From: a plasmid
Length of the DNA stretch: 64,000 bases
Direction: 5' to 3' (one strand)
Sequence record: OW967251.1
Shown here: in pieces, positions 1 to 45,532 of the stretch
How positions within the stretch are numbered: position 1 is the first letter of the stretch
Layout of the letters: each line of letters opens with the position of its first letter
Position numbers and translations under genes: made by a program
The notes under the pieces: generated by a model
What the model was told of the DNA's origin: nothing
Database searches by the model: none
Seen by the model: only the letters and a program-made list of their open reading frames with translations

Positions 1-160
1 GGACGATCTCTTTTGAAAACGATAGTCCCGAATGCCTCTATGAATTCGAGAGACTGCTGAATGATTACGCTTTGCGAGAAAAGCTACAGCATAAAACAGG
101 GGCGTTGAGAGATTCTATTGTCCATAAAGTGCTTCGCAGCGTAGATGAAAGGCTTTCGTA
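1..160 (+). CDS. 3' end of an upstream ORF (possible HxsD-like partner of the His-Xaa-Ser system); 5' end lies outside the window
   Basis: Frame 3 is open from the window edge to a TAA at 158-160, immediately abutting the hxsB ATG at 161 (..TAATGG..). Calling it HxsD rests only on the TIGRFAM description of the hxs cluster, not on recognised motifs. Confidence 0.3.
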
Positions 161-1549
161 ATGGAATTGATGCCATTCAATTTTGACAGATTGCCTAATG
201 GACGGGTTTTTATAAGCAACCTCGCAGGCTTTCATCACTTCATTAATGAGCAAGAGCTGCTTGATCTTTCTGATGAGCAAATCAGTGCGGAGCAATCAAA
301 CCCACTAGAAAGCAAGCTGTTCATAACCAACGAAAGCTCATCAGCTATTGCTCCCTATGCTTTAAGTTCTGCTTTTGCAAAAAGATTGATGAATGAACTG
401 GCGATCAGGCCAATTTTCATGATTGTGTCCACATTGCGTTGCGACCATACCTGCAAGTATTGTCAGGTCAGTAGAGCTTCAGTGAACGCCTCTGGTTATG
501 ATCTAGATCCCGATCTCATCCCTCATATCATTTCGACTATCAAAAAACTATCGATACCACCTTACAAGATAGAGATACAGGGTGGAGAGCCACTCTTGCG
601 GTTCGATTTAATTCAGTCTATCTATGAGCAATGTACTGAAACGTTGGGAAGCTCCGATTTTGAGATGGTGATAGCATCAAGCCTGTCTGTCTTGAATGAG
701 GATATGCTTCAATGGTCGAGAGGCAGGAACATAACGTTCTCTGTTTCGCTTGATGGTGAGGAGGTTGTTCACAACAGTAATCGAATTCTTGGTCATGGGC
801 TTGCTTACAGTAGAACAGTATCAGGAGTAGAGGCTATCAAACGGTCTTTAGGCGCTGGTCGCGTTGCAACGGTTACTACAGTTACTAAAGATCTTATCAG
901 GCATCCTGAATCGATTGTCCAGGCTCACTTGTCTCTTGGCCTCAAGGACATGTTTATCCGACCTGTTAGTCCCTATGGGTTTGCACAAAAAGCATCGTTC
1001 ACATTTTCTATGGAGGAATACTTCAGTTTCTATGCCTCGTTGATAGATGAAATCCTTAAGATGAATAATGAAGGGATAAGGGTTGTGGAACATTCGGCCT
1101 CCATTCATCTGAAAAGGATCTTCAATCCCGGCTTTAGTGGTTATGCGGATTTAAAGTCGCCAAGCGGGGTCGTGCTTAACAGTATTCTTTTCAATTATGA
1201 CGGTCGAGTATATGGTAGCGATGAGAGCCGTATGTTGCAGAAGGTGAACCCTGAAACGGAGTTCAGTGCGGGTGAGGTTAAAACGCTATCATTTTCTAAG
1301 AGTCCTTACTATAACGCAGTGTTGAGTTCATCGTTCAATTTTGCTCTGCCGGGTTGTGATACATGTGCATATCAACCATTTTGCGGTGCAGATCCATGCC
1401 AGAACATAAGTGTACAGGGTGAGCCTGTCGGTGATAGGAGTCGTTCAACGTTTTGTCAGTATCACAAGGGGATGTTCAGGTATCTGATGAACTGCATCTC
1501 AGAAGGTGGTCCGAAGGCTGAGATGCTAAAAGGATGGGCATATGTCTGA
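161..1549 (+). CDS. hxsB: Radical SAM/SPASM-domain maturase, HxsB-like (His-Xaa-Ser system)
   Basis: 462 aa. A CxxxCxxC radical-SAM motif is present (C-DHT-C-KY-C). The C-terminal Cys-rich cluster (CDTCAYQPFCGADPC) is typical of SPASM/twitch auxiliary Fe-S domains. The gene overlaps hxsC by 8 nt, indicating translational coupling. Confidence 0.8.
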   Translation: MELMPFNFDRLPNGRVFISNLAGFHHFINEQELLDLSDEQISAEQSNPLESKLFITNESSSAIAPYALSSAFAKRLMNELAIRPIFMIVSTLRCDHTCKYCQVSRASVNASGYDLDPDLIPHIISTIKKLSIPPYKIEIQGGEPLLRFDLIQSIYEQCTETLGSSDFEMVIASSLSVLNEDMLQWSRGRNITFSVSLDGEEVVHNSNRILGHGLAYSRTVSGVEAIKRSLGAGRVATVTTVTKDLIRHPESIVQAHLSLGLKDMFIRPVSPYGFAQKASFTFSMEEYFSFYASLIDEILKMNNEGIRVVEHSASIHLKRIFNPGFSGYADLKSPSGVVLNSILFNYDGRVYGSDESRMLQKVNPETEFSAGEVKTLSFSKSPYYNAVLSSSFNFALPGCDTCAYQPFCGADPCQNISVQGEPVGDRSRSTFCQYHKGMFRYLMNCISEGGPKAEMLKGWAYV

Positions 1550-2654
1550 GGTTATTAGGAACGATATCTTTCATTTTGCTTCAAAAAAGAATGTGCCCAC
1601 GGGGTTCTATCGGTTATGCAAACAAAAACCAATGAACCCTTTATTCTTTTTACCCAATTTACTGGTAGTTGCTGAAGGCAATAATGATGCCATTCAACCA
1701 TGCTTTGATTTCTCTGTTATTAGCACTGAATTATATGAGTCAATTGAAGATGGAGATATTGGGATAATCAACAATGGCAATATGATACGCGTAATTCTGT
1801 CCCGCAGAGCCAATCATAATACTGTCTTAGTAACGGAACGCTGCAATAACTTGTGTCTGTTTTGTTCGCAGCCACCTAAGAAATCAAATGATGACTGGCT
1901 ACTTACCCAATCAGCTCTTGCTATAGCTTCATTTGGTTTGGATGGAGTTGTTGGGGTCAGCGGTGGAGAACCTTTGCTGTATGGAGATGATTTCCTTCAC
2001 TTCATTGATTTTATCATCGAGAATTCACCAGATACTGCTTTGCATGTTTTAACAAACGGACGCAAATTTTCTGATATCAACTTTACTCAGGAAATGGCAA
2101 AGCGAAGCAAAAAGATAAAAATCACCTTTGGTATCCCGCTCTACTCATCAAGACCACTTGTGCATGATCATCTGGTAGGGAATGATGGCGCATTTAATGA
2201 AACGGTTAAGGGATTAATTAATGCAGGAAACTCAGGGATTAATATCGAACTTAGAGTTATTCCGACACTGGCTAACTATACAGAATTGGATGATATTGTA
2301 GAGTTCGTTGGCCGTGTGTTCTCCAACATCAATCAGATTTCCCTTATGGGGCTGGAATCTATCGGTTGGGCACGAAAGAACTGGTCAACAATCTTCATTG
2401 AGCACAGCAGTTATAGTGAGAAAATAATCTCCGCCATAGACGCTGCGCACAGGTCAGGTATACCTCTAACAATTTTTAATTATCCTTTGTGTCATCTTCC
2501 CGAAAGAGCTTGGGAGCTTGCTGCTCAGTCGATCTCTGATTGGAAAAATTACTATCCTAAAGAATGTGATGAATGCACTCAGAAGTCTTCCTGTACTGGT
2601 TATTTCAGTTCCTCAACAGGCCGTTTTCATCAACCACCGAGACCAATTTTATGA
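1542..2654 (+). CDS. hxsC: Second radical SAM maturase, HxsC-like (His-Xaa-Ser system)
   Basis: 370 aa. A CxxxCxxC motif is present (C-NNL-C-LF-C), and GGEPLL mirrors the GGEPLL of the first enzyme. Its stop overlaps the ATG of the downstream precursor gene as ATGA. Confidence 0.8.
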   Translation: MSEVIRNDIFHFASKKNVPTGFYRLCKQKPMNPLFFLPNLLVVAEGNNDAIQPCFDFSVISTELYESIEDGDIGIINNGNMIRVILSRRANHNTVLVTERCNNLCLFCSQPPKKSNDDWLLTQSALAIASFGLDGVVGVSGGEPLLYGDDFLHFIDFIIENSPDTALHVLTNGRKFSDINFTQEMAKRSKKIKITFGIPLYSSRPLVHDHLVGNDGAFNETVKGLINAGNSGINIELRVIPTLANYTELDDIVEFVGRVFSNINQISLMGLESIGWARKNWSTIFIEHSSYSEKIISAIDAAHRSGIPLTIFNYPLCHLPERAWELAAQSISDWKNYYPKECDECTQKSSCTGYFSSSTGRFHQPPRPIL

Positions 2655-3286
2655 AAAAATTTAATTTTGCTGCTCTACTTCCGGGATTTTTGGCGCTCAA
2701 TAATTCTGTATGGGCAAGTGATTCATCCACCGGAGCAAGTGATTTGCCTGGTATGACCCTTAATGAACATGATTTAGTGATAGCCCCACTTAACACCGAA
2801 GTTCCATTCTACATTGCAGGGCATCGCAGTCATAGCTCCCATCGAAGCCATAGTTCTCACCGATCATCATCAGGTGGCGGGTACTATGGTGGCAGCACTC
2901 CTTATTATCCAAAAACATACAGCTCACCAAGCTCATCTGAGTCTTCAAGTTCAGGAACAAGTTCCTCATCGTCCTCTTCCTCTGTGCGTTCGCTTCGTTC
3001 TAACGACAATAACAACTCTACTACTACGAATTCTGTTGGAACTACAGAAGCTAACCGTGCAAGTAATGGGCTGACTTCTGGTACAGAGAAGCGTAAGCGC
3101 TTAATCATGCGGGTTCAATTCGCTTTGCTGGACAAAGGTTATTACAACGGGAATATTGACGGCATAATGGGGCCTTCCACAAGGCAGTCCATAAAAAATT
3201 ATCGCATTGCGAACGGACTACCAACACCTGCAACTGAAACGCTGGATACTCAATTATTGAACTCGTTAAATATTTTGGCTCGTTAA
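2651..3286 (+). CDS. hxsA: His-Xaa-Ser repeat precursor protein, HxsA-like; secreted, with a C-terminal peptidoglycan-binding domain
   Basis: The ATG at 2651 overlaps the hxsC stop. An N-terminal signal peptide is present (MKKFNFAALLPGFLALNNSVWA). The repeat HRSHSSHRSHSSHRS contains five H-x-S units. It is followed by Gly/Tyr- and Ser-rich low complexity, and the C-terminus matches a PG_binding_1-type motif (LLDKGYYNGNIDGIMGPSTRQSIKNYRIANGLPTPAT). Confidence 0.8.
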   Translation: MKKFNFAALLPGFLALNNSVWASDSSTGASDLPGMTLNEHDLVIAPLNTEVPFYIAGHRSHSSHRSHSSHRSSSGGGYYGGSTPYYPKTYSSPSSSESSSSGTSSSSSSSSVRSLRSNDNNNSTTTNSVGTTEANRASNGLTSGTEKRKRLIMRVQFALLDKGYYNGNIDGIMGPSTRQSIKNYRIANGLPTPATETLDTQLLNSLNILAR

Positions 3287-3821: not shown

Positions 3822-4220
3822 GTGGGAACCAAAGTGTCAGATATGCAGAAAAATATGACTCCCGGCAGGCGTAAAGGCTGCCCTAATTATTCTCCTGAGT
3901 TTAAACAGCAACTCGTTGCTGCCTCCTGCGAACCCGGGATATCCATCTCAAAACTGGCGCTTGAAAATGGCATTAATGCCAATCTGCTCTTTAAATGGCG
4001 CCAGCAGTGGCGCGAGGGAAAGCTGCTATTACCTTCCTCTGAGAGTCCTCAGTTACTTCCTGTGACTCTCGATGCCACCGCCGTACAACCAGAACCGCCC
4101 GCTGAGGACTCAGAGCTCAGCATCTGCTGTGAGGTAACGTTCCGGCACGGGACACTCCGCCTCAACGGCACTGTCAGCGAAAAGCTTCTGACTCTGCTGA
4201 TACAGGAACTGAAGCGATGA
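3822..4220 (+). CDS. tnpA: IS66 accessory protein TnpA (orf1)
   Basis: 132 aa first ORF of the IS66 unit. Its stop overlaps the tnpB start as ATGA. Confidence 0.7.
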   Translation: MGTKVSDMQKNMTPGRRKGCPNYSPEFKQQLVAASCEPGISISKLALENGINANLLFKWRQQWREGKLLLPSSESPQLLPVTLDATAVQPEPPAEDSELSICCEVTFRHGTLRLNGTVSEKLLTLLIQELKR

Positions 4221-4564
4221 TCCCGCTACCAACAGGCATCAAAATCTGGCTGGTTGCCGGTATTACCGATATGAGAAACGGCTTCAACGGGCTGGCTGCA
4301 AAAGTGCAGACGGCGCTGAAAGACGAACCGATGTCCGGCCATGTCTTCATCTTCCGGGGCCGCAGCGGCAGTCAGGTTAAACTTCTGTGGTCCACCGGCG
4401 ACGGGCTGTGCCTGCTGACCAAACGGCTGGAGCGCGGGCGCTTCGCCTGGCCGTCAGCTCGCGATGGCAAAGTGTTCCTGACCCCGGCGCAGCTGGCAAT
4501 GCTGCTGGAAGGCATCGACTGGCGACAGCCGAAGCGGTTGCTGACCTCCCTGACCATGCTGTAG
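4217..4564 (+). CDS. tnpB: IS66 Orf2/TnpB
   Basis: 115 aa. The conserved block IWLVAGITDMRNGFNGLAAKVQ...FIFRGRSGSQVKLLWSTGDGLCLLTKRLERGRFAWP is characteristic of IS66 TnpB. Confidence 0.85.
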   Translation: MIPLPTGIKIWLVAGITDMRNGFNGLAAKVQTALKDEPMSGHVFIFRGRSGSQVKLLWSTGDGLCLLTKRLERGRFAWPSARDGKVFLTPAQLAMLLEGIDWRQPKRLLTSLTML

Positions 4565-4613: not shown

Positions 4614-6151
4614 ATGAATGACATCTCTTCTGACGACATCCTTCTGCTGAAACAGCGCCTTGCCGAACAGGAAGCGCTGAACCGTGCCCTGCTGGAAAAG
4701 CTGGCAGACCGGGAGCGCGAAATAGACCATCTGCAGGCGCAGCTGGATAAACTTCGCCGGATGAACTTCGGCAGCCGTTCCGAAAAAGTCTCCCGCCGTA
4801 TCGCACAAATGGAAGCCGATCTGAACCGGCTTCAGAAAGAGAGCGATACGCTGACCGGTCGGGTGGATGACCCGGCAGTACAGCGCACTCTGCGTCAGAC
4901 CCGCACCCGCAAACCGTTCCCCGAATCACTCCCCCGCGATGAAAAACGCCTGCGGCCAGCGGGTTCCTGCTGCCCGGAGTGTGGTGGTGCGCTGAGTTAC
5001 CTGGGTGAGGATGCCGCTGAACAGCTGGAGCTGATGCGCAGCGCCTTCCGGGTGATCCGGACCGTACGGGAAAAACATGCCTGCACAAAATGTGATGCCA
5101 TCGTGCAGGCCCCCGCGCCTTCGCGCCCCATTGAGCGGGGTATCGCCGGACCGGGGCTGATGGCCCGCGTGCTGACCTCAAAGTATGCAGAGCACACACC
5201 GCTGTATCGTCAGTCTGAAATATACGGTCGCCAGGGCGTGGAACTGAGCCGTTCACTGCTGTCGGGCTGGGTGGATGCATGCTGCCGGCTGCTGTCCCCG
5301 CTGGAGGAGGCGCTTCAGGACTATGTCCTGACTGAAGGTAAACTCCATGCCGATGATACCCCGGTCCAGGTGCTGTTGCCGGGCAATAAGAAGACGAAGA
5401 CCGGGCGGTTGTGGACGTATGTTCGTGATGACCGCAACGCCGGGTCAGCGCTGGCACCGGCGGTGTGGTTCGCCTACAGCCCGACAGAAAAGGCATCCAT
5501 CCGCAGACCCATCTTGCGGGGTTCAGCGGTGTGCTACAGGCGGATGCGTACGCCGGGTTCAACGAGCTGTACCGCGATGGCCGGATAACGGAAGCCGCCT
5601 GCTGGGCTCACGCCCGCCGTAAAATCCACGATGTGCACGTTCGCACGCCGTCAGCCCTGACGGAGGAAGCCCTGAAGCGTATCGGCGAACTGTATGCCGT
5701 GGAGGCGGAAATAAGAGGAATGCTGGCGGAACAACGGCTTGCTGAACGTCAGCGGAAAACGAAACCGCTGCTTAGTACCCTGGAAAGCTGGTTGCGTGAA
5801 AAAATGAAAACGCTGTCGCGACACTCGGAGCTGGCAAAGGCGTTCACGTACACCCTGAACCAGTGGCCGGCCCTGACGTACTATGCAGAAAACGGCTGGG
5901 CCGAAGCCGATAATAACATCGCTGAAAATGCGCTGCGGATGGTCAGTCTGGGTCGTAAAAACTGGTTGTTCTTCGGCTCAGACCACGGTGGTGAGCGGGG
6001 AGCGTTGCTGTACAGTCTGATCGGGACGTGCAAACTGAACGGCGTGGATCCAGAAAGCTACCTTCGCCATGTCCTTGACGTCATAGCTGACTGGCCGGTC
6101 AACCGGGTCAGCGAGCTGCTACCCTGGCGCATCACACTGCCAACTGAATAA
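4614..6151 (+). pseudogene. tnpC: IS66 transposase TnpC, split into two overlapping frames (4614-5588 and 5465-6151); this is either a frameshift or programmed slippage
   Basis: The N-terminal leucine-zipper-like region and CxxC...CxxC zinc motif lie in frame A. The C-terminal DDE-like region (NNIAENALR...[11 protein letters not shown]) lies in frame B. The frames overlap by about 120 nt. Confidence 0.6.
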
Positions 6152-6188: not shown

Positions 6189-6603
6189 AAATCCCTGGAA
6201 AGCTGGCTGCGTGAAAAGATGAAAACCCTGTCGCGACACTCAGAACTGGCGAAAGCGATCGCATACGCCCTGAACCAGTGGCCGGCGCTGACGTACTATG
6301 CAGATGATGGCTGGGCTGAGGCGGACAATAACATCGCTGAAAATGCGCTGCGGATGGTCAGTCTGGGCCGCAAAAACTACCTGTTCTTCGGTTCGGATCA
6401 TGGAGGAGAGCGGGGAGCGCTGCTGTACAACCTGATCGGGACGTGCAAACTGAACGGAGTGGAGCCAGAAAGCTACCTCCGCTATGTCCTTGACGTCATA
6501 GCCGACTGGCCGATAAACCGGGTCGGCGAACTGCTCCCCTGGCGCGTAGCACTGCCGACTGAATAACACATCCCCGTCAATACGGTTCTTGCTGCACGCT
6601 TAC
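6189..6603 (+). mobile_element. Partial second IS66-family copy (tnpC 3' end plus right IR) abutting the complete element; it is divergent and not an exact duplicate
   Basis: ORF 6219-6566 encodes a tnpC C-terminal paralog (AIAYAL/DDGWAE versus AFTYTL/ENGWAE). The terminal gctgcacgcttac at 6591-6603 repeats the right-IR motif. Confidence 0.7.
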
Positions 6604-8386: not shown

Positions 8387-10120
8387 TCAGCATGCGACGA
8401 GGTGCCCGTCGCCAAAATCGGTAAAGCGCTGCGGTACTCTCTGATAGCCGATGGGTTTGATCGGTTCTGGTCTTATCGGCATTGCGCTGGTGGCTCGGGG
8501 TTGCCGTCTTTGCTGAACGTCAGGTATAGGAACGGCGCTGAGCAAGTGCTGAGTATAAGGATGCTGCGGATGGTGCAACACTCGATCTCGTGGGCCGATC
8601 TCCACGAGCTGGCCGCCAAACATCACCGCTACCCGGTGGCAGATGCGCTCCACCACCGCCATATCATGGGAAATAAACAGATAGCTGAGCCGATAGCGCT
8701 GACGCAAATCTTCCAGCAGCGTCAGCACCTGCGCCTGTACTGAAACATCCAGCGCGGAAACCGATTCATCGGCGATGATCACTTTCGGGTTCAGCGCCAG
8801 CGCGCGGGCAATGCAAATGCGCTGGCGCTGGCCGCCGGAAAACTGGTGCGGATAACGCCGCATCGCTTCCGCTGGCAGGCCGACCTGCTGCAATAGCTGC
8901 GCCACCCGCTCCGTGCGCTGTACTGCGGGCATCTGCTCATGAATCAGCAGCGGCTCCCCAACCAGGTCGAAAATAGTTTTGCGCGGATTGAGCGCCGCCC
9001 AGGGATCCTGAAACACCATCTGCAAATCGCGGCGTACCGCTCTTAACGCCTCGTCCTTCAGGCCGTGCAGCTCCTGTCCGTTAAGCTGCGCGCTGCCGCT
9101 AAATGGCACCATATTCATCAGCGCTTTTGCCGTCGTCGATTTACCGCAGCCGCTTTCACCGACGATGCCCAACGTCTCGCCGGGGAAAAGATCGAAGCTG
9201 ACGCCATCGACGGCATGGACTTCGCGACGCACGCGCAGGCCGTCGCCGCGCACCGGAAAGCGCACGCTGAGGTCGCGGACGCTGAGCAACGGTCGCGTCG
9301 CCTCGACCGGCGCCAGCGCGGGCGCCTGGCCCAGCACCGGTACCGCCTGCAACAGCTGGCGGGTATAAGCCGCCTGCGGCGAGGTAAACAGCGTTTTTGC
9401 CGGAGCCTGCTCCATGATTTTGCCGTGACTCATGACCAGCACATCATCGGCCATTTCTGCCACCACTCCCATATCGTGGGTGATCAACAGCAGGCTGGTG
9501 GAAAACGCCTGCTGCAGTTCGCGCATCAACTCGAGGATCTGCGCCTGAATAGTGACGTCGAGGGCCGTGGTCGGCTCATCGGCAATCAGCACCTGTGGCT
9601 GGCACAGCATTGCCATGGCGATCATCACCCGCTGGCGCATACCGCCGGAAAGCTCGTGCGGATACTGTTGCAGGCGCTTCTCCACATGACTGATTTTGAC
9701 CGCGTCCAGCATCGTGCTGACCCGGCTGCGCCGTTCACGGCGGCCCAGCACTTCGTGGCGTTGCAGCGTCTCTTCCAGCTGCTGGCCCACCGTCATCAGC
9801 GGATTGAGCGAGGTCATCGGTTCCTGAAAAATCATGGCAACCGACTTGCCGCGCAGCAACTGCATTTGCCGCTCCGGCAGGCTGAGCAAATCCTGGTTAT
9901 CAAAAATAATCGCGCCGCCTGGAATCTGTGCCTCCTCCGGAAGCAAACCCATGATCGCCAGCGAAGTCAGCGATTTACCGCTGCCCGACTCGCCGGCAAT
10001 GCACAGAGTTTTTCCCGGCCAGAGCGCAAAGCTGACGTCATCCACCACCCGCTGTGTACCAAACTGGATCGACAGGCGCTCGACCGAGAGCAGCGGCGCC
10101 GGAAATAGGACTGCTGACAT
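8387..10120 (-). CDS. ABC transporter ATP-binding protein, fused double-ATPase (DppD/DppF- or GsiA-like)
   Basis: Two Walker A motifs ([16 protein letters not shown]), two [13 protein letters not shown] signatures and two Walker B motifs. The start MSAVLF has the RBS taggagcg. Confidence 0.85.
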
Positions 10121-10127
10121 AACGCTC

Positions 10128-11075
10128 CTAATTAAACACGCTGTTGGGAAAATAGAACGACACCACCCAGTTAGGCCGATCGACGATTTCGCTGATGCGC
10201 AGATCGCCGCACACGGAGCAGAGCATATAGGCCTCTTCCGCCGACATCCCTTGTTCGCGGCACAGCGCATCGATGGTATAGCTTACCGCGTCGCGGGCGG
10301 CGGTCATCAGGTCAGGGCCAATGCCGGTGAAGGCGCTGTAGCCGTGCCGATCCAGATGTTGGGTCACTGGGCCAGGGGTGGCGAAACGCGGCGTTTTCAG
10401 CGGCATATCTTTAACCACTTCCAGCTTCACCACCACGTCCATCGCGCTTTCAATCGCCGTGCCGCAGACTTCACCATCGCCCTGCGCGGCGTGGGTGTCA
10501 CCAATAGAAAACAACGCGCCTTCTACTTCCACCGGTAGCCATAATGTGCAGCCAGCGGCCAGATCGCGAATATCCAGATTGCCGCCCACGCGGCGCGGCG
10601 GCACCACCGAATGATGGCCCGCGGCGGCGGGAGCGACGCCGAGGGTACCGGCGAAGGGTTTCAGCGGTACGCGGCCATATCGGCCAAAGGCGCAGGGGGT
10701 TAAGCCCTGGCGGTCATATTGCCACAGCGTCAGCGCCGGATCAGAAAACTGATCGGCCAGCAGGCCGAAGCCCGGGATATTCGCAGTCCAGCCAAAGCCG
10801 CTGGGACGAAAGGATTCCAGCGTCACCTTTAGCGCATCGCCCGGCTGAGCGCCTTCCACATAGACCGGGCCACTGACCGGGTTGAGCTTATCAAACGGCA
10901 GCGTTGGGATATCCGCTGCGGTAGAACCGGCGTTGAACCAGCCGTTAGCCGCATCCAGGCAGTGAAACTCCAGTTGGCTGCCGGAAGCTACGTGCAGGAC
11001 CGGGCTCAGGCTGTTATCCCAGCCGAAATGATGTTGAGCATGATGAATGGTCTTCACCAGACAATTTTGGCACAT
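10128..11075 (-). CDS. Acetamidase/formamidase (FmdA_AmdA) family hydrolase
   Basis: 315 aa. Its overall similarity to FmdA/AmdA-family enzymes is recognisable. The stop overlaps the RBS of the downstream ATPase gene. Confidence 0.7.
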   Translation of the reverse strand: MCQNCLVKTIHHAQHHFGWDNSLSPVLHVASGSQLEFHCLDAANGWFNAGSTAADIPTLPFDKLNPVSGPVYVEGAQPGDALKVTLESFRPSGFGWTANIPGFGLLADQFSDPALTLWQYDRQGLTPCAFGRYGRVPLKPFAGTLGVAPAAAGHHSVVPPRRVGGNLDIRDLAAGCTLWLPVEVEGALFSIGDTHAAQGDGEVCGTAIESAMDVVVKLEVVKDMPLKTPRFATPGPVTQHLDRHGYSAFTGIGPDLMTAARDAVSYTIDALCREQGMSAEEAYMLCSVCGDLRISEIVDRPNWVVSFYFPNSVFN

Positions 11076-11119
11076 CCTGACTCTCCTTTAAGCAGCGGCG
11101 CCGTCCCGGCGCCATCAAA

Positions 11120-12727
11120 TTATTTCAGTCCGATATAGTCGTAGTTGACTGGTACATGCACTGGATCGACATACAGCGCGTCCTCGCCCCCCATGCGTGC
11201 GGAATGTACGGTGTAGCGCTTCTCGTTGAATACCGGCACCCAGGGCGCGTCATCCATTGCAGTGATGAAGATTTTGCGCCAGGCTTCAATGCGCGCGTCC
11301 TGCTGGTCGGGTTTCACCATGCTGTCCGCCGCGGCCGCCTGCGCGTCCAGCGCTTTGTTGCAGTAGCGCGCCCAGTTCCAGCCGCCCTCTACCGCCCCGG
11401 CGCAGCCGAGGATCGGGCCATAGAAGTTGGAGGGATCCGGGAAATCGGCGATCCACGCCATGCCGCCGGACCAGACCATCGGCGCTTGGCTGGCGGAGCC
11501 GCCCGCCGCAATCACATTCGCCTGCGCCAGGGATTTGATGCTGGCGTGGATGCCCACTTTGGCCAGATCCTGCTGGATAGACTGAGCGATACGCGGCTGC
11601 GGATCGGTATTCATCACGTACAGTTCGGTAGCAAAACCGTTGGGGAAACCCGCTTCGCTGAGCAGTTGCTTCGCTTTTGCCGGGTCGTAGCTGAAACCCT
11701 GATATGCCTTGTCATAACCGGGCATGGCGGGTGGCAGTGGCTGGTTGGCCGGCGCCGCGCGTCCATTAATGATGCGCACGATGCGATCTTTGTTGACCGC
11801 CATGTTCACCGCCTGGCGGACTTTGAGATTATCGAAAGGCGGCAGCGTGGTTTTCATCGTCACGTAGCCGGTCTGCAACTGGTCGCCGGTGACCATCAGG
11901 CCCTTATAGGCCGGGTTGTTTTTAAACGACAGAAACTGTGCGGGCGGTACGCCGTCGCCGGCAATATCCACTTCGCCTTTTTCCAGCCGCAGCAGAGCGA
12001 CCGAGGGATCCTGTCCCATTTCGAACTTTATGTGATCCAGCCGCGGCACGCCGGCTTTAAAGTAGTTCGGGTTTTTGCGGAAGATCAGCTCCTGGCCCAG
12101 CTTCCACTCCTGGAGCTCAAACGCGCCGCTGCCGACCGGATGCTTGCCGAAGTCGGCACCCCATTTCTCCACCTCCTCACGGGGAACCACCGAGGCAAAG
12201 TTCAGCGCCAGCACATGCAGGAAGGTGGCGTTGGGCTCTTTCAGAGTGATTTTTACCGTATGATCGTCGACGACCTCGATACCGCTCAGGGTCGTGCTTT
12301 TACCGCTGGCCTCCTCGTCATAGCCCGCGATGGGACTGAAGAACCCGGCGCCCGGACTTTGGGTTTTCGGGTTGACTGTGCGTTCCAGAGAATATTTCAC
12401 GTCCGCCGCCGTGACCTCGCGGCCGTTGTGGAATTTCACCCCTTTGCGTAGCACAAAGGTGTAGACCTTGCCGTCCTCGGAAATGGCGTAGCTCTCCGCC
12501 AGGTCGTTCACCAACTCGGTGGTGCCGGGACGATAGTCCATCAGGCCGTCGAACAGGCTTTTGATCATCGACCAGTTTTGCCAGTCATAGCCAATGGCCG
12601 GATCGAGGGTCGCCACGTCGTTCTGGTAGGTCACCACGATATCGCCGCCAGTCTTCTCGTCAGCCTGCGCGCCATAAGAGAAACAGGCCGCGGCCACCGC
12701 CATTGTCAATAACGCATTTTTCATCAT
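11120..12727 (-). CDS. ABC transporter periplasmic substrate-binding protein, family 5 (DppA/OppA-like)
   Basis: 535 aa with a signal peptide (MMKNALLTMAVAAACFSYGAQA). Cluster-5 solute-binding protein features are present. Confidence 0.8.
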   Translation of the reverse strand: MMKNALLTMAVAAACFSYGAQADEKTGGDIVVTYQNDVATLDPAIGYDWQNWSMIKSLFDGLMDYRPGTTELVNDLAESYAISEDGKVYTFVLRKGVKFHNGREVTAADVKYSLERTVNPKTQSPGAGFFSPIAGYDEEASGKSTTLSGIEVVDDHTVKITLKEPNATFLHVLALNFASVVPREEVEKWGADFGKHPVGSGAFELQEWKLGQELIFRKNPNYFKAGVPRLDHIKFEMGQDPSVALLRLEKGEVDIAGDGVPPAQFLSFKNNPAYKGLMVTGDQLQTGYVTMKTTLPPFDNLKVRQAVNMAVNKDRIVRIINGRAAPANQPLPPAMPGYDKAYQGFSYDPAKAKQLLSEAGFPNGFATELYVMNTDPQPRIAQSIQQDLAKVGIHASIKSLAQANVIAAGGSASQAPMVWSGGMAWIADFPDPSNFYGPILGCAGAVEGGWNWARYCNKALDAQAAAADSMVKPDQQDARIEAWRKIFITAMDDAPWVPVFNEKRYTVHSARMGGEDALYVDPVHVPVNYDYIGLK

Positions 12728-12736
12728 CTTCCCCTG

Positions 12737-13657
12737 CTACTTTTTGACATCAATGCGCGGATCGACCCACGGCAGCACCAGATCCGCAATAAGGTTGCCG
12801 CCAACAATGGCAACCGCTGACACGGTGGTTACCCCGACAATCACCGGGATATCCACCTGTTGAATCGCCTGCCAGGCCAGCTGACCGATACCCGGCCAGC
12901 CAAAGACCGATTCGACTACCACCAGTCCGCCCATAAAAATGCCGATATCAATGCCTATCATCGGAATTAGCGGCAGCACGGCATTCGGCAGCACGTGACG
13001 CAGCAGTACGCGGGTTCGGCCCAGCCCTTTGGCCCGCGCGGTACGGATAAAATCCTGATGCAGCACCTCAATCATCGACGAGCGCAACATGCGTGAATAC
13101 CAGCCGCTGCCGAGCAGGCCGAGGGTTAGCGCCGGTAGCGCCAGATGGCTGAAGCCGCCATAGCCTCCCATCGGGAACCAGTTGAGTACCACGGCGAAAA
13201 GATAGAGAAAAAGCATCGCGGCGATGAACTGCGGCGCCGAAACACCGATAAAGGAGAGCGCCATCAGAAGCCGGTCCGCCAGCCCGCCGCGTTTTAACGC
13301 CGCCAGGGTGCCGAGTGCGATCCCCAGTACCAACTCGCAGAGAATACCCGCCGCCATCAGCTGCAGTGACGGCCCAATACGGGCGGAAACCAGTTCACTC
13401 ACTTCGCTGCGCTGAATAAACGAGCGTCCCAGATCGCCGTGCAGCAGCCCCTGCAGATAACGCCAATATTGCTGATAAAACGGCAGATCCAACCCCAACT
13501 GATGGCGGATGTTTTCGACTACTTCCGGCGTGGCACTGCGCCCGGCGATTTGGCGCGCTGGATCGGCGGGCAACATAAACAGCAGCAAATAGCAGATCAA
13601 CGTAACGCCAAGCAGGATCAGCCCGGCATGCAACAGACGTTTTCCCAGAAATAGCAT
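12737..13657 (-). CDS. ABC transporter permease (DppB-like)
   Basis: 306 aa polytopic membrane protein. It carries the BPD-transporter EAA-like motif region. Confidence 0.8.
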   Translation of the reverse strand: MLFLGKRLLHAGLILLGVTLICYLLLFMLPADPARQIAGRSATPEVVENIRHQLGLDLPFYQQYWRYLQGLLHGDLGRSFIQRSEVSELVSARIGPSLQLMAAGILCELVLGIALGTLAALKRGGLADRLLMALSFIGVSAPQFIAAMLFLYLFAVVLNWFPMGGYGGFSHLALPALTLGLLGSGWYSRMLRSSMIEVLHQDFIRTARAKGLGRTRVLLRHVLPNAVLPLIPMIGIDIGIFMGGLVVVESVFGWPGIGQLAWQAIQQVDIPVIVGVTTVSAVAIVGGNLIADLVLPWVDPRIDVKK

Positions 13658-14505
13658 TAGTTTCGTCCTTTTAAGCCGGGATCGAGGGCGTCGCGCAGGG
13701 CGTCACCAGCGATATTGAAAGAGAGCGACAGCAGCACAATCGCCGCGCCGGGAAAGAACACCAGCCAGGGAGCCGAAGTAAAATAGCTCTGGCTTTCAAA
13801 GATGATGTTGCCCCAACTCGGCGTTGGCGGCTGTACCCCCACCCCGAGGAACGATAGAGTAGCTTCCAGCAGGACTGTGGTGGAGATGCCTAGTGTGGCC
13901 CAGACCAGCACCGTTGGCGCCAGATGTGGAATTAAATGCACGCCGAGAATACGCAACGTTCCGGCCCCCAGGGTGCGTTCCACGGCGATAAAGTCGCGGG
14001 CGCTAAGCGCGCTAGTTTCGGCGTAGGTAACCCTGGCGATCTGCACCCAGTTCACCATGGCGATCACCAGGGACACGATCCAGACACTTGGCTGGAAAAT
14101 CGCCGCCAGGGCAATCGCCAGCAGCAGTGCGGGAAACGCCATCATCAGATCGGTAAAGCGCATCAGCAGCCCTCCGATACGCCCCTGCAGATAACCTGCG
14201 CTAAGCCCTACCAGGACGCCGATCAGTACTGCAGTGCCGTTGGCGACAACACCGATGAGTAACGAAGTACGAGCTCCGTAAATTAAACGCGAGAAGAGAT
14301 CGCGTCCCAGCAGATCGGTTCCCAGCCAGTAAGTGCTGTTGGGAGAAAGCGGTGCGCCTTCCAGGCTCAGTCCCTCGACAAACTGTTCATCGGGATCGAA
14401 GGGGGTGAGCCAGGGGGCAAACAGCGCGCTCATCACCACCAGGAGAATAAACAGCAGCGAGAGCAGCAGGGCTGGCCGGCGCAGAAAATATCCGACTCTA
14501 TTCAT
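13657..14505 (-). CDS. ABC transporter permease (DppC-like)
   Basis: The likely start is the internal Met (MNRVGYFLRRPALLL) at 14505, which overlaps the amiR stop as ATGA. The protein has an N-terminal TM helix plus a permease core. Confidence 0.75.
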   Translation of the reverse strand: MNRVGYFLRRPALLLSLLFILLVVMSALFAPWLTPFDPDEQFVEGLSLEGAPLSPNSTYWLGTDLLGRDLFSRLIYGARTSLLIGVVANGTAVLIGVLVGLSAGYLQGRIGGLLMRFTDLMMAFPALLLAIALAAIFQPSVWIVSLVIAMVNWVQIARVTYAETSALSARDFIAVERTLGAGTLRILGVHLIPHLAPTVLVWATLGISTTVLLEATLSFLGVGVQPPTPSWGNIIFESQSYFTSAPWLVFFPGAAIVLLSLSFNIAGDALRDALDPGLKGRN

Positions 14506-15095
14506 TGTGCTCCCCGCTTGCCGGACGACATTCGTAGCAGCCACTTCTGCGCCACCTGTGCCACCGACTGGTTCGTACACATTGATTCCGAGCGCAGGCG
14601 AACCCATGCCTGTTGTTCATCAATACTTTCCGCTTGCATCTGGGCCGCCAGAGCTTGGGTAATCTGCGGCATTGCTGCCAGACGCTGGCGCAGTAGCATC
14701 TGTTGCTGTTGAATGTCATGCAACTGCTGACGCAGCCCCACTGCCATCATCAGGGTGGTATAGATGGCTCGCTGTGTAATAGGCTTGGTAAGGAGCGCTG
14801 TTGCCCCTAACTCCAGCGCGCGCTGTACCTGGTAAAGTCCCTCATGTGAGGTCAGCGCGATCACCGGTATTCCCGCCAGATTGATCTGGCTCAGGGTTAG
14901 CGGGCTGGCGAATGCCTCCAGTTCCACCAGTACTGCACAGGGGGTGAGAGGAGGTAAAGCCTCATCTCCGGTCAGGTGATGCCAGCGGATACCCATCCGC
15001 GTCAGGTTTTTTTCCAGCGCTTCGCGACTCCTTGCTTCACAGTCTACCAGCAGGAGCGGCTGAGCATCTAAATCCGGGGACAGCAGCGTTTTCAT
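14502..15095 (-). CDS. amiR: ANTAR-domain antiterminator response regulator (AmiR-like)
   Basis: 197 aa with an N-terminal receiver-like domain. The C-terminal ANTAR helix region (IEQAKGIL-like: ...SVAQVAQKWLLR...) is present, and the gene is immediately downstream of amiC. Confidence 0.7.
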   Translation of the reverse strand: MKTLLSPDLDAQPLLLVDCEARSREALEKNLTRMGIRWHHLTGDEALPPLTPCAVLVELEAFASPLTLSQINLAGIPVIALTSHEGLYQVQRALELGATALLTKPITQRAIYTTLMMAVGLRQQLHDIQQQQMLLRQRLAAMPQITQALAAQMQAESIDEQQAWVRLRSESMCTNQSVAQVAQKWLLRMSSGKRGAQ

Positions 15096-16219
15096 TTAAC
15101 AATCCTCAGAGCAGGTCTGGCTGCAACCGTTCGGCTTTCACGTAGCTCGGTCGCGGAGAGATAGGGATCGGGCATAACCGGCAGCGGTTCGCGATGCAGT
15201 ATCTGAAAGCAAGTTTGTTGCAACTCAGCGATGTAGCAGGGCAAACAGGCGTGGTTGTTTCGAGCCATTACTGAGCGAGCGCCCGGAGAATCAACGTCGT
15301 GCTGACGATGCAGTGCCGCCAGCACCGCACCCGGCTCGCTGTTTCCGGCCTCGCGCAGGCTATTGGCAAACAGCCTTACTGCCCGCCAGCCGCCGATGTA
15401 GTAGTGGGAGATGCGCTGTGCGCCATGTTGCAGGTGCTGCCGCGCGCAAAAATCGAGATCGACGCTCTCAAAAAACGGTCCGCAGGAAAGCAAACGTACC
15501 GCCCTTAGTGGCGCGACTTCGGCGACTTCGGCTTCGGTAAAATTACAGCTGAGCACCGCTAACGTCCGCCGATCGCGAAGACAGGCCTCGTCCAGTGCGC
15601 GCAGAAACGCATAAGAGGTTTCGCCTACCAGGTTATTGAGTACAAAATCTACCTCTGTGCTGAGAATCGCCTCAATCAACTCGGTCACGTTGCTGTTTCT
15701 CAGGTGCAGATATTTTTCGCCCACCACCGTACCGCCGGAACCTTCCACTACCTCACGGGCGATACGATTGCTTTCCCAGCCCCAGACGTAGTTAGAGCCG
15801 ATCAGCCAGGAGCGATTTCCGAACATATCCAGCGCCAGCCGCAGGAGTGGCAGCAGAGTCTGGTTCGGACAACCGCCCAGATATACGACCTGCTCGCAGC
15901 TCTCGAACCCCTCGTAAGGACAGCCATACCACAGCAGCAGGTTATGCTGCTCCAGGTCCGGGATAATCTCCTTCCGACTGGCAGAGGTAATGGTTCCGAA
16001 GATATGGCGGATGCCGTGAGCGATAAAGGTGCTCACCGCTTCACTGTAGGCTGCGAGTTCACCCGCAGGGTTGATATGTCGGGCCCGCAGCTGAAAAGGA
16101 TAAGCAGGATCGGCATTGATTTCCTCTAAGGCATGGCGCGCACCAAGCAGTGTGCTGTTCGCCAGGTGGCTGTAGGTACCTTCTGTGGAAAGCAAAATTC
16201 CAATATCAATAGTTTGCAC
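15092..16219 (-). CDS. amiC: AmiC-like amide-sensing periplasmic-binding-fold negative regulator
   Basis: 375 aa with a type I periplasmic binding protein fold and no signal peptide. It has a GTG start and is translationally coupled to amiR. Confidence 0.7.
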   Translation of the reverse strand: MQTIDIGILLSTEGTYSHLANSTLLGARHALEEINADPAYPFQLRARHINPAGELAAYSEAVSTFIAHGIRHIFGTITSASRKEIIPDLEQHNLLLWYGCPYEGFESCEQVVYLGGCPNQTLLPLLRLALDMFGNRSWLIGSNYVWGWESNRIAREVVEGSGGTVVGEKYLHLRNSNVTELIEAILSTEVDFVLNNLVGETSYAFLRALDEACLRDRRTLAVLSCNFTEAEVAEVAPLRAVRLLSCGPFFESVDLDFCARQHLQHGAQRISHYYIGGWRAVRLFANSLREAGNSEPGAVLAALHRQHDVDSPGARSVMARNNHACLPCYIAELQQTCFQILHREPLPVMPDPYLSATELRESRTVAARPALRIVK

Positions 16220-27672: not shown

Positions 27673-28132
27673 TCTGTCTCCTTAAAAAGGTCAGTCACCA
27701 GATAAATAAATGTAAAAGTGTGCGGAACGCGATACCCGCCAGTGCCCCCGGCAGTGCAAATCGAAAAATACGCAGAAAGCGGGCGCTGATGCCCATGAAT
27801 ATACCAATGCCCGGCAAATCAAAACTGTTGATGAGAAATCCGGCTGAGCGGTTAATTTCGTTAACGGTCAGGTTACCGCTATGGATAAGGTCAGTCGGTA
27901 ATGCTGTCAACCTGTTGATGACTATTTTAATCTGTAGTCATTCAATCCTTGTAACATCAGGATGATCCTGGTGTCAGTGAAAATACGAAATCAACACGTT
28001 GGTATCATTACCCACCTGTGAACTGACGTCGGCATTTTGAATCTCACTTCGGCGTGCCCCCTCCGAATGGCGCAAAACATTTCGTGGTATGGCATGATAG
28101 CACCCGAAGAGAGTCAATTCAGGGTGGTAAAT

Positions 28133-29215: not shown

Positions 29216-29221
29216 GCGCAA

Positions 29222-32411
<3,190 letters not shown>

Positions 32412-32417
32412 TAATAA

Positions 32418-33716
<1,299 letters not shown>

Positions 33717-42689: not shown

Positions 42690-43547
42690 TTATAGGGGGA
42701 CAGTGGCCAGTCGCGTGTAGTTGTTCCCGCGCGACAGCAGCATGCGCTCCTGCACACGGCGCTCAACCTCACGCTTCAGCGCTTCTTTATCGCCCATGAA
42801 GCGGCCGGTGGCGTATTCGCGGGTCAGTTGCTGACGCACGCGCGTCTCGATGTCATGACGCTGCCGTGATGCATCCCGCCGTGCAGTATCCCGCTTACGG
42901 CCGTGAGATTTACGCTCAGCCTGATAGCTGCGAAAACGCTCACGCACAAACCGCCACGCTTTTGCGATCAGTTCGTCCATCTCCAGGGGTTTCAGTTTCT
43001 GCTTTTTGCGCTGCAGGTTTTCCCACTCCACACGGCTGCGGCGCGCGGCCACCACAGCCACCTCAGAAACGTCAAGCGCGGAAAACAGAGCCGGGGTGAA
43101 GGTGATATCGGTCGGGATGTTACAGCCGATCTGCGGGTCATATTCAGTCTGATAGGTGATGAGCCCCAGCTCGGCCAGAAACTTCAGCGCCCGGGTGGCA
43201 CGGCTGACTGACAGGTTGCCGCTCCTGGACTCGGTGGCCAGTCCACACTCGATGGCCATATTGGTAATCGAGCGCTGCACGCGATTGGCCAGCGGATCAT
43301 AGTGAAAACACATTGCCTGCAGTAGCGCGTCAATTGCACGCCGGCGCAACAGGGGTGGCATCCTGTGCCGCTTACCCAGCGAACGCAAAAACGCCACATG
43401 AATGGAAAAATCAAAACGGGACGTGAAGCCTTCGGCTTTCGCCATCAGCTTACGGCAGAACGGCAGGGTCTTTTTCCCTTCACGCGGCGTGAATACCGGA
43501 TTCGGGTTTTTAACCTGTGAATAGTGGTTTTGAAGGATATCAGTCAC
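42690..43547 (-). CDS. repA: IncFII replication initiator RepA1
   Basis: 285 aa. Extended blocks recalled from R100/R1 RepA1 are present ([11 protein letters not shown]..., [86 protein letters not shown]). Confidence 0.9.
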
Positions 43548-45531: not shown

Positions 45532-45532
45532 T

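What the first reader, a model, noticed from the sequence alone, without database searches (positions are those of the whole stretch)
1..3286. His-Xaa-Ser (hxs) locus: two radical-SAM/SPASM enzymes plus an (HxS)5 precursor that is secreted and peptidoglycan-binding
Two consecutive CxxxCxxC radical-SAM genes are translationally coupled to a small precursor ORF by an 8-nt overlap and an ATGA overlap. The only striking feature of that precursor is HRSHSSHRSHSSHRS. This is the HxsB/HxsC/HxsA arrangement catalogued in TIGRFAMs, for which no chemistry or function has been established. The low GC and the position next to IS66 suggest horizontal acquisition. The system is a RiPP-like modification locus, and its product is unknown.
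Basis: partly seen in the sequence, partly recalled or inferred. Interest (0 to 1): 0.75.

Follow-up and report, generated by a model that had tools for sequence, protein, structure and literature searches.

The report
Known HXS antiphage operon, damaged copy
This is the hxsDBCA operon, shown in 2026 to protect bacteria by blocking phage DNA entry; it is already annotated on hundreds of Klebsiella plasmids, and this copy has probably been crippled by an IS1-mediated deletion and a mutation at an invariant residue.

Summary
Window 1-3286 holds the last 52 codons of hxsD, then hxsB, hxsC and hxsA. All four score above NCBIfam's curated equivalog cut-offs, and the gene overlaps and the (HxS)5 repeat are exactly as described.

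A 2026 paper (Nat Commun 17:3910) showed that this four-gene system, HXS, is a broad antiphage defence. HxsB, HxsC and HxsD mature HxsA by N-terminal processing and a +8 Da modification on SHRSS. Mature HxsA acts in the periplasm, needs its peptidoglycan-binding domain, and delays phage DNA entry.

The window is 100% identical to Klebsiella pneumoniae IncFIB(K)/IncFII(K) plasmids such as pKPN-498, where PGAP already names all four genes.

This particular lineage looks damaged:
- A 681-bp IS1-adjacent deletion ends 55 nt before the window. It removed the conserved promoter-like leader and hxsD codons 1-21.
- Window position 428 turns HxsB Pro90 into Ser. Pro90 is invariant in 34 homologues.
- 34 of the 35 plasmids with this allele also carry the IS1 junction.

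Verdict: an already known system, of low interest. The one point worth noting is that many epidemic Klebsiella plasmid copies are probably non-functional.

The parts
3..161 (+). 3' end of hxsD: the last 52 codons plus the stop, containing the LLNDYALRE motif. The gene is cut by the window edge.
   Evidence: Translation. TIGR03976 scores 51.0 bits against a cut-off of 50. PGAP annotates hxsD on identical plasmids. The stop overlaps the hxsB start (TAATG).
161..1549 (+). hxsB, a radical SAM maturase of 462 aa
   Evidence: TIGR03978 scores 556.9 bits against a cut-off of 370, matching end to end (3-460 of the protein to 1-466 of the profile). Pfam Radical_SAM hit. Cysteines at 94, 98, 101, 399, 402, 408, 413, 432 and 445. 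These are the same residue numbers as those mutated in PMC13128918 (C98, C101, C399, C402).
440..463 (+). HxsB CxxxCxxC radical SAM cluster motif (C94, C98, C101)
   Evidence: The paper's C98A/C101A mutant abolishes HxsA cleavage and defence.
428..428 (+). T instead of C, giving HxsB Ser90 instead of Pro90. This is the only difference from the lineage with full-length hxsD over window positions 1-3400.
   Evidence: L004 has C; E. coli has Pro. Pro90 is invariant in 34 homologues of 53-97% identity. The T allele is in 35 plasmids and the other allele in 273.
1542..2654 (+). hxsC, a radical SAM maturase of 370 aa that overlaps hxsB by 8 nt
   Evidence: TIGR03977 scores 402.3 bits against a cut-off of 267.9. 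The protein is 100% identical to HxsC of E. coli ECC-1470. Cysteines at 101, 105, 108, 317, 342, 345 and 351.
1842..1865 (+). HxsC CxxxCxxC radical SAM cluster motif (C101, C105, C108)
   Evidence: The paper's C105A/C108A mutant abolishes HxsA cleavage and defence.
2651..3286 (+). hxsA, the effector precursor of 211 aa, with an ATGA overlap onto hxsC
   Evidence: TIGR03979 scores 162.8 bits against a cut-off of 121.65. It differs at 5 residues from E. coli ECC-1470 HxsA.
2651..2716 (+). HxsA signal peptide, residues 1-22 (MKKFNFAALLPGFLALNNSVWA)
   Evidence: Read directly from the sequence. The paper gives residues 1-22 as the signal peptide. AALLPGFL is kept even in homologues whose HxsB is only 53-56% identical.
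2822..2866 (+). Five His-Xaa-Ser repeats (HRS HSS HRS HSS HRS, residues 58-72)
   Evidence: The same five repeats (or six) are followed by SSGGGY in 33 homologues. In the paper, replacing any one repeat with AAA abolishes defence.
2855..2869 (+). SHRSS (residues 69-73), the site of the published +8 Da modification
   Evidence: The motif is present unchanged. Modification site from PMC13128918. Whether it is modified in this copy was not tested.
3110..3223 (+). Peptidoglycan-binding domain of HxsA (residues 154-191)
   Evidence: Pfam PF01471 scores 25.5 bits against a cut-off of 23. In the paper, mutations in this domain abolish defence.

Best explanation
Window 1-3286 is the hxsD(3' end)-hxsB-hxsC-hxsA operon, the HXS antiphage system. 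It sits on a Klebsiella pneumoniae IncFIB(K)/IncFII(K) conjugative plasmid of the pKPN-498 / pKN-LS6 type.

Mechanism in the characterised E. coli system (PMC13128918):
- The two radical SAM enzymes HxsB and HxsC act on the precursor HxsA in the cytoplasm. HxsC forms a complex with the small protein HxsD.
- Maturation is N-terminal processing that is not plain signal-peptide removal, plus a +8 Da change (+C, -4H) within SHRSS in the last HxS repeat.
- Mature HxsA reaches the periplasm. It needs its C-terminal peptidoglycan-binding domain for defence, and it delays entry of phage DNA.
- The result is a fall in plating efficiency, without abortive infection and without any change in adsorption.

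What the paper shows: the defence phenotype, the need for all four genes, the need for the cluster cysteines, periplasmic location, delayed DNA entry, the +8 Da shift, and DNA binding in vitro.

What is inferred: that the rSAM enzymes install the +8 Da group, its chemistry, anchoring of HxsA to the cell wall, and electrostatic capture of the incoming DNA.

For this copy I infer the system is probably impaired. In every identical plasmid examined, an IS1-adjacent 681-bp deletion removed the conserved upstream leader and hxsD codons 1-21. HxsB also carries Ser in place of the invariant Pro90, four residues before the first cluster cysteine.
For: Identity:
- The NCBIfam equivalog models for HxsB, HxsC, HxsA and HxsD all score above their cut-offs.
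- There are no differences from pKPN-498 (L001) or pKPN (L003) over positions 1-3400.
- 350 plasmids match, 345 of them Klebsiella, and the whole window is colinear with pKN-LS6.

Function:
- PMC13128918.
- The residues it mutated have the same numbers here: HxsB C98/C101/C399/C402, HxsC C105/C108/C342/C345, the HxsA 1-22 signal peptide, chymotryptic limits at 48 and 78, and SHRSS at 69-73.

Impairment:
- The IS1 right end abuts hxsD immediately before the LYW motif in L001 and L003.
- The deletion is exactly 681 bp relative to pNU-CRE047_1 (L004), with the IS1 itself identical.
- The lost residues include the block SEWV(I/L)RN(S/A), which is conserved in nearly all of the 34 HxsD homologues.
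- The lost ~95-nt leader is conserved across 11 loci. It holds an invariant CTGTAACATA and a -10-like GTATC(A/C)T, and is the only promoter-like site found there. No such site is found at the IS1 junction.
- Pro90 is invariant in 34 HxsB homologues.
- 35 plasmids carry the window's T428 allele, and 34 plasmids carry that allele together with the IS1 junction.
- Two plasmids of the same lineage additionally have ISKpn26 inside the locus.
Against: - The IS1 junction lies 55 nt outside the window, so truncation of this copy is inferred from linkage (34 of 35 plasmids), not read directly.
- The LYW and LLNDYxLRE motifs that the paper tested are both retained in the truncated HxsD, and the first 21 residues were never tested.
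- hxsB, hxsC and hxsA remain intact open reading frames.
- Transcription could come from IS1 or from a hybrid promoter, and the promoter scans are consensus matches only.
- A single substitution does not prove loss of activity.
- The antiphage function rests on one laboratory's work with an E. coli operon (strain MEM). I could not retrieve its sequence, so its exact identity to this copy is unknown.
- The reported m/z of 714.5 (5+) for HxsA(48-78)+8 does not fit this sequence, which would give 678.7.
Confidence: 0.8

Rival explanations
1. The same HXS system, but this copy is still a working defence. It would be transcribed from IS1 or from an upstream plasmid promoter. HxsD would be translated from an in-frame start at the IS1 end (TTG at L001 11931), or would function without its first 21 residues. 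HxsB P90S would be tolerated.
For: - All three complete genes are intact, and the HxsD motifs tested in the paper (LYW, LLNDYxLRE) are retained.
- The truncated HxsD still scores 69.6 bits against a cut-off of 50.
- The truncated form persists in at least 93 plasmids.
Against: - The deleted leader and the SEWVxRNS block are conserved across genera.
- No promoter-like site is found at the junction.
- From general knowledge, IS1 insertions are strongly polar.
- Pro90 is invariant.
- The two lineages differ by one base in 3400, so the intact reading frames say nothing about selection.
- Further IS insertions into the locus occur in the same lineage.
Confidence: 0.33
2. A rival mechanism for the family. 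Mature HxsA would not stop phage by binding DNA electrostatically. Instead, peptidoglycan-bound HxsA would obstruct assembly or passage of the phage ejection channel through the cell wall and periplasm.
For: - T7 escape mutations map to the ejectosome proteins gp15 and gp16.
- The authors themselves note that phage DNA crosses the periplasm inside a protein channel, and they list channel-directed alternatives.
- Mature HxsA here is only weakly basic: 17 Lys+Arg against 13 Asp+Glu, plus 6 His.
- The peptidoglycan-binding domain is required.
Against: - Pull-downs found no HxsA-gp15/gp16 interaction, while periplasmic HxsA shifted DNA in vitro.
- Protection against 110 of 113 diverse phages argues against recognition of one phage protein.
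Confidence: 0.3
3. One reading: a RiPP-like locus whose modified product is an unknown secreted peptide natural product.
For: - Two rSAM enzymes are translationally coupled to a repeat-bearing substrate gene.
- HxsB is distantly similar to RiPP maturases such as PapB (72.8 bits, far below the 340 cut-off).
Against: - HxsA is a 211-aa protein with a folded peptidoglycan-binding domain.
- The cassette has no dedicated peptidase or exporter gene. Homology to the E. coli copies starts about 95 nt before hxsD and stops at the hxsA stop codon.
- The mature product covers about residues 48-214 and acts as a protein in the periplasm.
Confidence: 0.03
4. The rSAM genes belong to another characterised family, for example anaerobic sulfatase maturase, and the HxS ORF is incidental.
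For: There are weak hits to anSME (53.6 bits) and to other SPASM maturases.
Against: - All such hits are far below their cut-offs (53.6 against 349), while the Hxs models match end to end above theirs.
- No sulfatase is annotated in the 64-kb window.
- The D-B-C-A order recurs in 34 genomes.
Confidence: 0.01

Closest known systems
HXS antiphage system of E. coli strain MEM (Li et al., Nat Commun 2026;17:3910, PMC13128918)
   Same: - The four genes are in the same order, D-B-C-A.
- The functional residue numbers match: HxsB C98/C101/C399/C402, HxsC C105/C108/C342/C345, the HxsA 1-22 signal peptide, five HxS repeats, SHRSS at 69-73, and the peptidoglycan-binding domain.
- E. coli chromosomal copies are 91-97.7% identical in DNA.
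- HxsC is 100% identical to that of E. coli ECC-1470.
   Different: - This copy is plasmid-borne in Klebsiella rather than chromosomal in E. coli.
- hxsD has lost codons 1-21 and the native leader to an IS1-adjacent deletion in the identical plasmids.
- HxsB has Ser90 in place of Pro90.
- HxsA is 211 aa here against 214 reported.
- The MEM sequence itself could not be compared.
His-Xaa-Ser system of TIGRFAMs/NCBIfam (TIGR03976 HxsD, TIGR03978 HxsB, TIGR03977 HxsC, TIGR03979 HxsA; Haft and Basu 2011, as cited in PMC9062424)
   Same: All four models are met above their curated cut-offs.
   Different: None in family terms. Only the 3' part of hxsD lies in the window.
Radical SAM/SPASM peptide maturases (PapB, anSME, CteB; PDB 5wgg)
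   Same: - A CxxxCxxC core followed by a Cys-rich C-terminal region in HxsB.
- HxsB aligns to the PapB and anSME profiles over most of their length.
- The only PDB sequence hit is 5wgg, at E = 1.4e-4 over the core.
   Different: - Scores are far below those families' cut-offs.
- Pfam SPASM is not detected.
- The substrate is a full-size secreted protein rather than a short leader-core peptide.
- Two different rSAM enzymes plus HxsD are all required.
Prokaryotic viperins (pVip), the other radical SAM enzymes known in phage defence
   Same: The radical SAM core. There are weak PADLOC pVip hits of 21-27 bits, and the 2026 authors found HXS while searching for viperin homologues.
   Different: Viperins make chain-terminating nucleotides in the cytoplasm. 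HXS matures a periplasmic protein and acts before the DNA enters the cell.
Phage-encoded superinfection exclusion that blocks DNA entry (T4 Imm and Sp), as compared in PMC13128918
   Same: Both act at the DNA-entry step in the cell envelope.
   Different: Those systems are phage-encoded, narrow in range and involve no enzyme maturation. HXS is host- or plasmid-encoded, broad in range and rSAM-dependent.

Membership tests
HXS / His-Xaa-Ser system (hxsDBCA) | HxsB radical SAM maturase (TIGR03978 equivalog) with CxxxCxxC | tested here: met
   556.9 bits against a cut-off of 370, matching end to end. C94/C98/C101 present. Caveat: the invariant Pro90 is replaced by Ser.
HXS / His-Xaa-Ser system (hxsDBCA) | HxsC radical SAM maturase (TIGR03977 equivalog) adjacent to HxsB | tested here: met
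   402.3 bits against a cut-off of 267.9. It overlaps hxsB by 8 nt. C101/C105/C108 present.
HXS / His-Xaa-Ser system (hxsDBCA) | HxsA with tandem His-Xaa-Ser repeats, an N-terminal signal peptide and a C-terminal peptidoglycan-binding domain | tested here: met
   TIGR03979 scores 162.8 bits against a cut-off of 121.65. Five repeats at residues 58-72. PG_binding_1 scores 25.5 bits against 23. The signal peptide was read from the sequence and matches the paper's residues 1-22.
HXS / His-Xaa-Ser system (hxsDBCA) | Full-length HxsD (TIGR03976) with the LYW and LLNDYxLRE motifs, upstream of hxsB | tested here: inconclusive
   The window holds only the last 52 residues, including LLNDYALRE (51.0 bits against a cut-off of 50). 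In identical plasmids the gene keeps LYW but lacks codons 1-21, and still scores 69.6 bits. The full-length form scores 93.6 bits.
HXS / His-Xaa-Ser system (hxsDBCA) | Gene order D-B-C-A as one operon | tested here: met
   The same order is seen in 34 loci from other genomes. The paper reports this order in 99.6% of systems.
HXS / His-Xaa-Ser system (hxsDBCA) | Confers phage resistance by delaying DNA entry; HxsA is cleaved and carries +8 Da on SHRSS | not testable with these tools
   Experimental properties from PMC13128918. This copy may fail them because of the hxsD truncation and HxsB P90S.
SPASM-domain radical SAM enzymes | A C-terminal SPASM domain (seven-Cys motif; Pfam PF13186) binding two auxiliary clusters | tested here: inconclusive
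   No Pfam hit at E <= 1 for either C-terminal region. HxsB has C399-x2-C402-x5-C408-x4-C413 plus C432 and C445, and aligns with SPASM maturase profiles up to residue 416-444. HxsC has only four C-terminal Cys, enough for one cluster.
Anaerobic sulfatase maturase | TIGR03942 above its cut-off, with a cognate sulfatase nearby | tested here: not met
   53.6 bits against a cut-off of 349.45. No sulfatase appears in the annotated 64-kb context.
RiPP biosynthetic gene cluster | A short leader-core precursor released as a small modified peptide, usually with a peptidase or exporter | tested here: not met
   The precursor is a 211-aa protein with a folded domain. The conserved cassette contains only the four hxs genes. 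The published mature product is a protein of about 167 residues.

The most novel reading that the evidence does not exclude
The hxs copy carried by epidemic K. pneumoniae plasmids of the pKPN-498 / pKN-LS6 type (KPNIH1 and relatives) may be a naturally inactivated HXS system, with promoter and HxsD N-terminus deleted by IS1 and then HxsB P90S.

If so, the published figure of 27% of Klebsiella genomes carrying HXS overstates the number of functional systems. These clones would also have lost a block to phage DNA entry. That matters for phage therapy and for transduction into them.

Alternatively, if the copy still works, HxsD residues 1-21 and the native promoter are dispensable, which would redraw the minimal system.
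Probability: 0.55. Interest if true: 0.35.

Novelty: already known. Interest (0 to 1): 0.2.

Why it matters
The locus itself adds nothing new. It is a named, HMM-defined system that PGAP annotates automatically, and its function was published in 2026.

It matters in two modest ways:
- Anyone still treating hxs as an orphan RiPP-like cluster should update. It is an antiphage system that acts at DNA entry, and the chemistry of its +8 Da modification is still unsolved.
- Presence of the hxs genes is not the same as a working system. At least 93 of about 350 hxs-bearing plasmids in PLSDB have the IS1-truncated hxsD. Of those, 34 also carry HxsB P90S, and others have IS elements inside the locus.

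Surveys of defence systems in Klebsiella, and choices of phage for therapy, should take this into account.

Tried and rejected
- **Anaerobic sulfatase maturase and other characterised rSAM families.** All score far below their cut-offs.
- **Pfam SPASM on the C-terminal thirds of HxsB and HxsC.** No hit. My first attempt used the wrong reading frame.
- **PADLOC-DB 2023.** It has no HXS model and gives only weak viperin hits, so the system would be missed by that version.
- **PDB sequence search with HxsB.** It returned only a marginal core match to 5wgg, and I did not pursue structures.
- **Reconciling the paper's m/z 714.5 (5+) for HxsA(48-78)+8 with this sequence.** The window's peptide would give 678.71, and none of nine sequence variants fits. 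The supplement is not held. This remains unexplained.
- **Finding the tested E. coli MEM operon (CP012378) among 155 E. coli hits.** It was not in the rows shown, so exact identity to the tested system is undetermined.
- **Promoter and terminator scans inside positions 1-3900.** The counts are no higher than in shuffled sequence, so I place no weight on internal sites.
- **Structure prediction of HxsD.** Not run, because the full-length protein is not encoded in the window.


Full report
**1. Observation**

The ORF list and the sequence confirm the layout.

- hxsB is 161..1549 and hxsC is 1542..2654, overlapping by 8 nt.
- A small gene has its real start at the ATG at 2651, which overlaps the hxsC stop as ATGA. 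It ends at 3286.
- Both large proteins carry CxxxCxxC: HxsB at C94/C98/C101 and HxsC at C101/C105/C108.
- The small protein carries HRSHSSHRSHSSHRS at residues 58-72.
- The small protein has a Sec-type N-terminus and a Pfam PG_binding_1 hit at residues 154-191.
- G+C is 0.40-0.45 here, against about 0.6 further along the window.
- The neighbouring element is an IS66-family insertion sequence with a frameshifted transposase.
- Positions 3..161 encode the C-terminal 52 residues of a fourth protein. They contain LLNDYALRE, and the stop overlaps the hxsB start.

**2. Identity**

NCBIfam equivalog models give these scores:

| Protein | Score (bits) | Cut-off (bits) |
|---|---|---|
| HxsB | 556.9 | 370 |
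| HxsC | 402.3 | 267.9 |
| HxsA | 162.8 | 121.65 |
| HxsD fragment | 51.0 | 50 |

Positions 1-3400 match 350 plasmids in PLSDB. Of these, 345 are Klebsiella and 349 are at least 99% identical. PGAP already names hxsD, hxsB, hxsC and hxsA on them.

The whole 64-kb window is colinear with pKN-LS6 (NC_021654.1), an IncFIB/IncFII conjugative plasmid.

In E. coli the cassette is chromosomal in 155 of 5426 complete genomes, in variants about 97%, 95%, 91% and 75% identical.

Homology between the Klebsiella and E. coli copies begins about 95 nt upstream of hxsD and ends within 3 nt of the hxsA stop. HxsB is 93-97% identical in Brenneria, Enterobacter, Kluyvera, Hafnia, Raoultella, Klebsiella oxytoca, Serratia and Buttiauxella.

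**3. Function**

Li et al. (Nat Commun 2026;17:3910, PMC13128918, with a bioRxiv preprint) cloned the E. coli MEM hxsDBCA operon. Their findings:

- The operon restricts 110 of 113 coliphages.
- All four genes are needed.
- Adsorption is unchanged and there is no abortive infection.
- T7 escape mutations map to the ejectosome proteins gp15 and gp16.
- T7 DNA entry is delayed from about 8-12 min to 30-50 min.
- HxsA needs its signal peptide and its peptidoglycan-binding domain, and is found in the periplasm in an N-terminally processed form. That processing depends on HxsB, HxsC and HxsD.
- The cluster cysteines of both enzymes and the LYW and LLNDYxLRE motifs of HxsD are required.
- HxsC binds HxsD.
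- A chymotryptic peptide covering residues 48-78 carries +8 Da, localised to SHRSS.
- Each HxS repeat is required.
- Periplasmic HxsA shifts DNA in vitro.

Several points remain inferred, as the authors themselves say: that the rSAM enzymes install the +8 Da group, its chemistry, anchoring of HxsA to the cell wall, and capture of incoming DNA by charge. No in vitro reconstitution exists.

No other paper in the library characterises the system. A 2022 paper still lists HxsB and HxsC as putative.

The residue numbers used in the 2026 paper coincide with this window's proteins. The tested operon is therefore of the same type, although I could not retrieve the MEM sequence itself.

**4. This particular copy**

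The window is identical, with 0 differences in 3400 nt, to pKPN-498 of KPNIH1 and to pKPN. It differs at one base (position 428) from pNU-CRE047_1.

*The IS1 deletion.*
- In pNU-CRE047_1, hxsD is full length and an IS1 lies 620 nt upstream.
- In pKPN-498, pKPN and pKN-LS6, the same IS1 abuts hxsD directly.
- The difference is an exact 681-bp deletion starting at the IS1 right end. It ends 55 nt before window position 1.
- It removes hxsD codons 1-21, counting from the MAM start as the paper does, and stops immediately before the LYW motif.

*What the deletion removed.*
- The lost residues include the block SEWV(I/L)RN(S/A), which is conserved in nearly all of the 34 HxsD homologues I extracted.
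- The lost DNA includes a ~95-nt leader conserved across 11 loci of several genera. It has an invariant CTGTAACATA and a -10-like GTATC(A/C)T, the only promoter-like match in that region.
- No promoter-like match exists at the IS1 junction. These scans are consensus matches only.

*The HxsB substitution.*
- Position 428 changes HxsB Pro90 to Ser.
- Pro90 lies four residues before the first cluster cysteine and is invariant in all 34 homologues of 53-97% identity.

*Counts in PLSDB.*
- 213 plasmids have the native hxsD 5' end.
- 93 plasmids have the IS1 junction.
- 35 plasmids have the T428 allele.
- 34 plasmids have the junction and the allele together.

The window's source therefore almost certainly carries the truncated hxsD.

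Two plasmids of the same lineage also have ISKpn26 inside the locus. IS insertions in hxsB or hxsC also occur in E. coli.

I conclude that this copy is probably impaired, with roughly 0.6 confidence. The caveats are that LYW and LLNDYxLRE are kept, that hxsB, hxsC and hxsA are intact, and that the two lineages are too close for intact reading frames to say anything about selection.

**5. Mechanistic remarks**

The HxsA N-terminus (AALLPGFL), the repeat block and the following SSGGGY are almost unchanged even where HxsB is only 53-73% identical. This fits a dual role for the N-terminal region as export signal and as recognition element for the maturases. That is my inference.

Mature HxsA here is only mildly basic: 17 Lys+Arg against 13 Asp+Glu, plus 6 His. 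Together with the gp15/gp16 escape mutations and the requirement for peptidoglycan binding, this keeps a channel-obstruction mechanism alive as a rival to DNA capture.

The MS search in the paper used +12.000 and -2.016 as variable changes. So +8 corresponds to one added carbon and four lost hydrogens, for example a one-carbon bridge plus two further dehydrogenations or cross-links. The chemistry is open.

**6. Unresolved**

The paper's m/z of 714.5 (5+) for HxsA(48-78)+8 does not fit this sequence, which would give 678.71, nor any of nine variants. The paper also gives HxsA as 214 residues where this one has 211. Either MEM HxsA differs in this stretch or the figure legend is imprecise. The supplement is not held.

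**7. Verdict**

The family assignment is right. The claim that the function is unknown is superseded.

This is a known system that is annotated automatically, so both novelty and interest are low. The one useful addition is that the copy on these epidemic Klebsiella plasmids is likely a damaged one, and the cloning experiment listed under next steps can test that directly.

Noticed in passing
window 35401-41243 (+): A complete Shango antiphage system lies on the same plasmid: SngA 35401..37731, SngB 37735..39051 and SngC 39048..41243. The PADLOC scores are 350, 618 and 936 bits. PGAP annotates them only as a TerB-N domain protein, an ATP-binding protein and a DEAD/DEAH helicase.
   Followed up: partly
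L001 11177-11944 and L004 3978-4658 (just upstream of window position 1): A 681-bp IS1-adjacent deletion removes the conserved hxs leader and hxsD codons 1-21 in the window's plasmid lineage. At least 93 PLSDB plasmids carry this junction, against 213 with the native 5' end.
   Followed up: yes
L004 4501-4596 and the equivalent region in L002, L005-L011, L027 and L032: A ~95-nt leader upstream of hxsD is conserved across several genera. It has an invariant CTGTAACATA and a -10-like GTATC(A/C)T, and is probably the native promoter. Conservation starts abruptly there, which marks the left edge of the mobile cassette. In two of the loci the first of the two candidate start ATGs is not conserved, which favours the 90-aa HxsD start.
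   Followed up: partly
window 3822-6566 (+): The IS66-family element next to hxsA is degenerate. tnpA (3822..4220) and tnpB (4217..4564) are intact. tnpC is split by a frameshift (4614..5588 and 5465..6151). A second tnpC 3' fragment follows at 6219..6566.
   Followed up: partly
plasmids OW967394.1 and NZ_CP070562.1; E. coli NZ_OW968288.1, NZ_CP101269.1, NZ_CP035860.1 and NZ_CP117717.1: The hxs locus is repeatedly hit by insertion sequences. ISKpn26 sits in the Klebsiella plasmid copy, where hxsA is no longer annotated. IS2, IS3 and ISVsa5 sit in hxsB or hxsC in E. coli.
   Followed up: no
HxsA residues 48-78 (window 2792-2884) compared with PMC13128918 Fig. 4c: The reported precursor m/z of 714.5 (5+) for the +8 Da peptide does not match this sequence, which would give 678.71, nor any of nine homologous variants. 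The paper also gives HxsA as 214 aa where this one has 211.
   Followed up: partly
window 44433-47551 (-): A phospholipase D family protein (44433..44993) gives weak DrmC-like PADLOC hits. Next to it lies an S-type pyocin / klebicin-like bacteriocin with its immunity gene (about 45253..47551), beside the IncFII repA at 42690..43547.
   Followed up: no
window 8387-33716: Cargo with about 0.6 G+C: an acetamidase/formamidase gene with an ABC transporter and an ANTAR regulator (8387..16219, minus strand), fecIRABC... (from 17774, plus strand) and lacI-lacZ-lacY (28037..33716, plus strand). The F-type transfer genes finO through traH occupy 49338..64000.
   Followed up: no
E. coli NZ_LR536431.1 4072854-4076253: One E. 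coli chromosome carries the Klebsiella-plasmid version of the locus at 99.9% identity, including the sequence beyond hxsA. This suggests integration of plasmid DNA.
   Followed up: no
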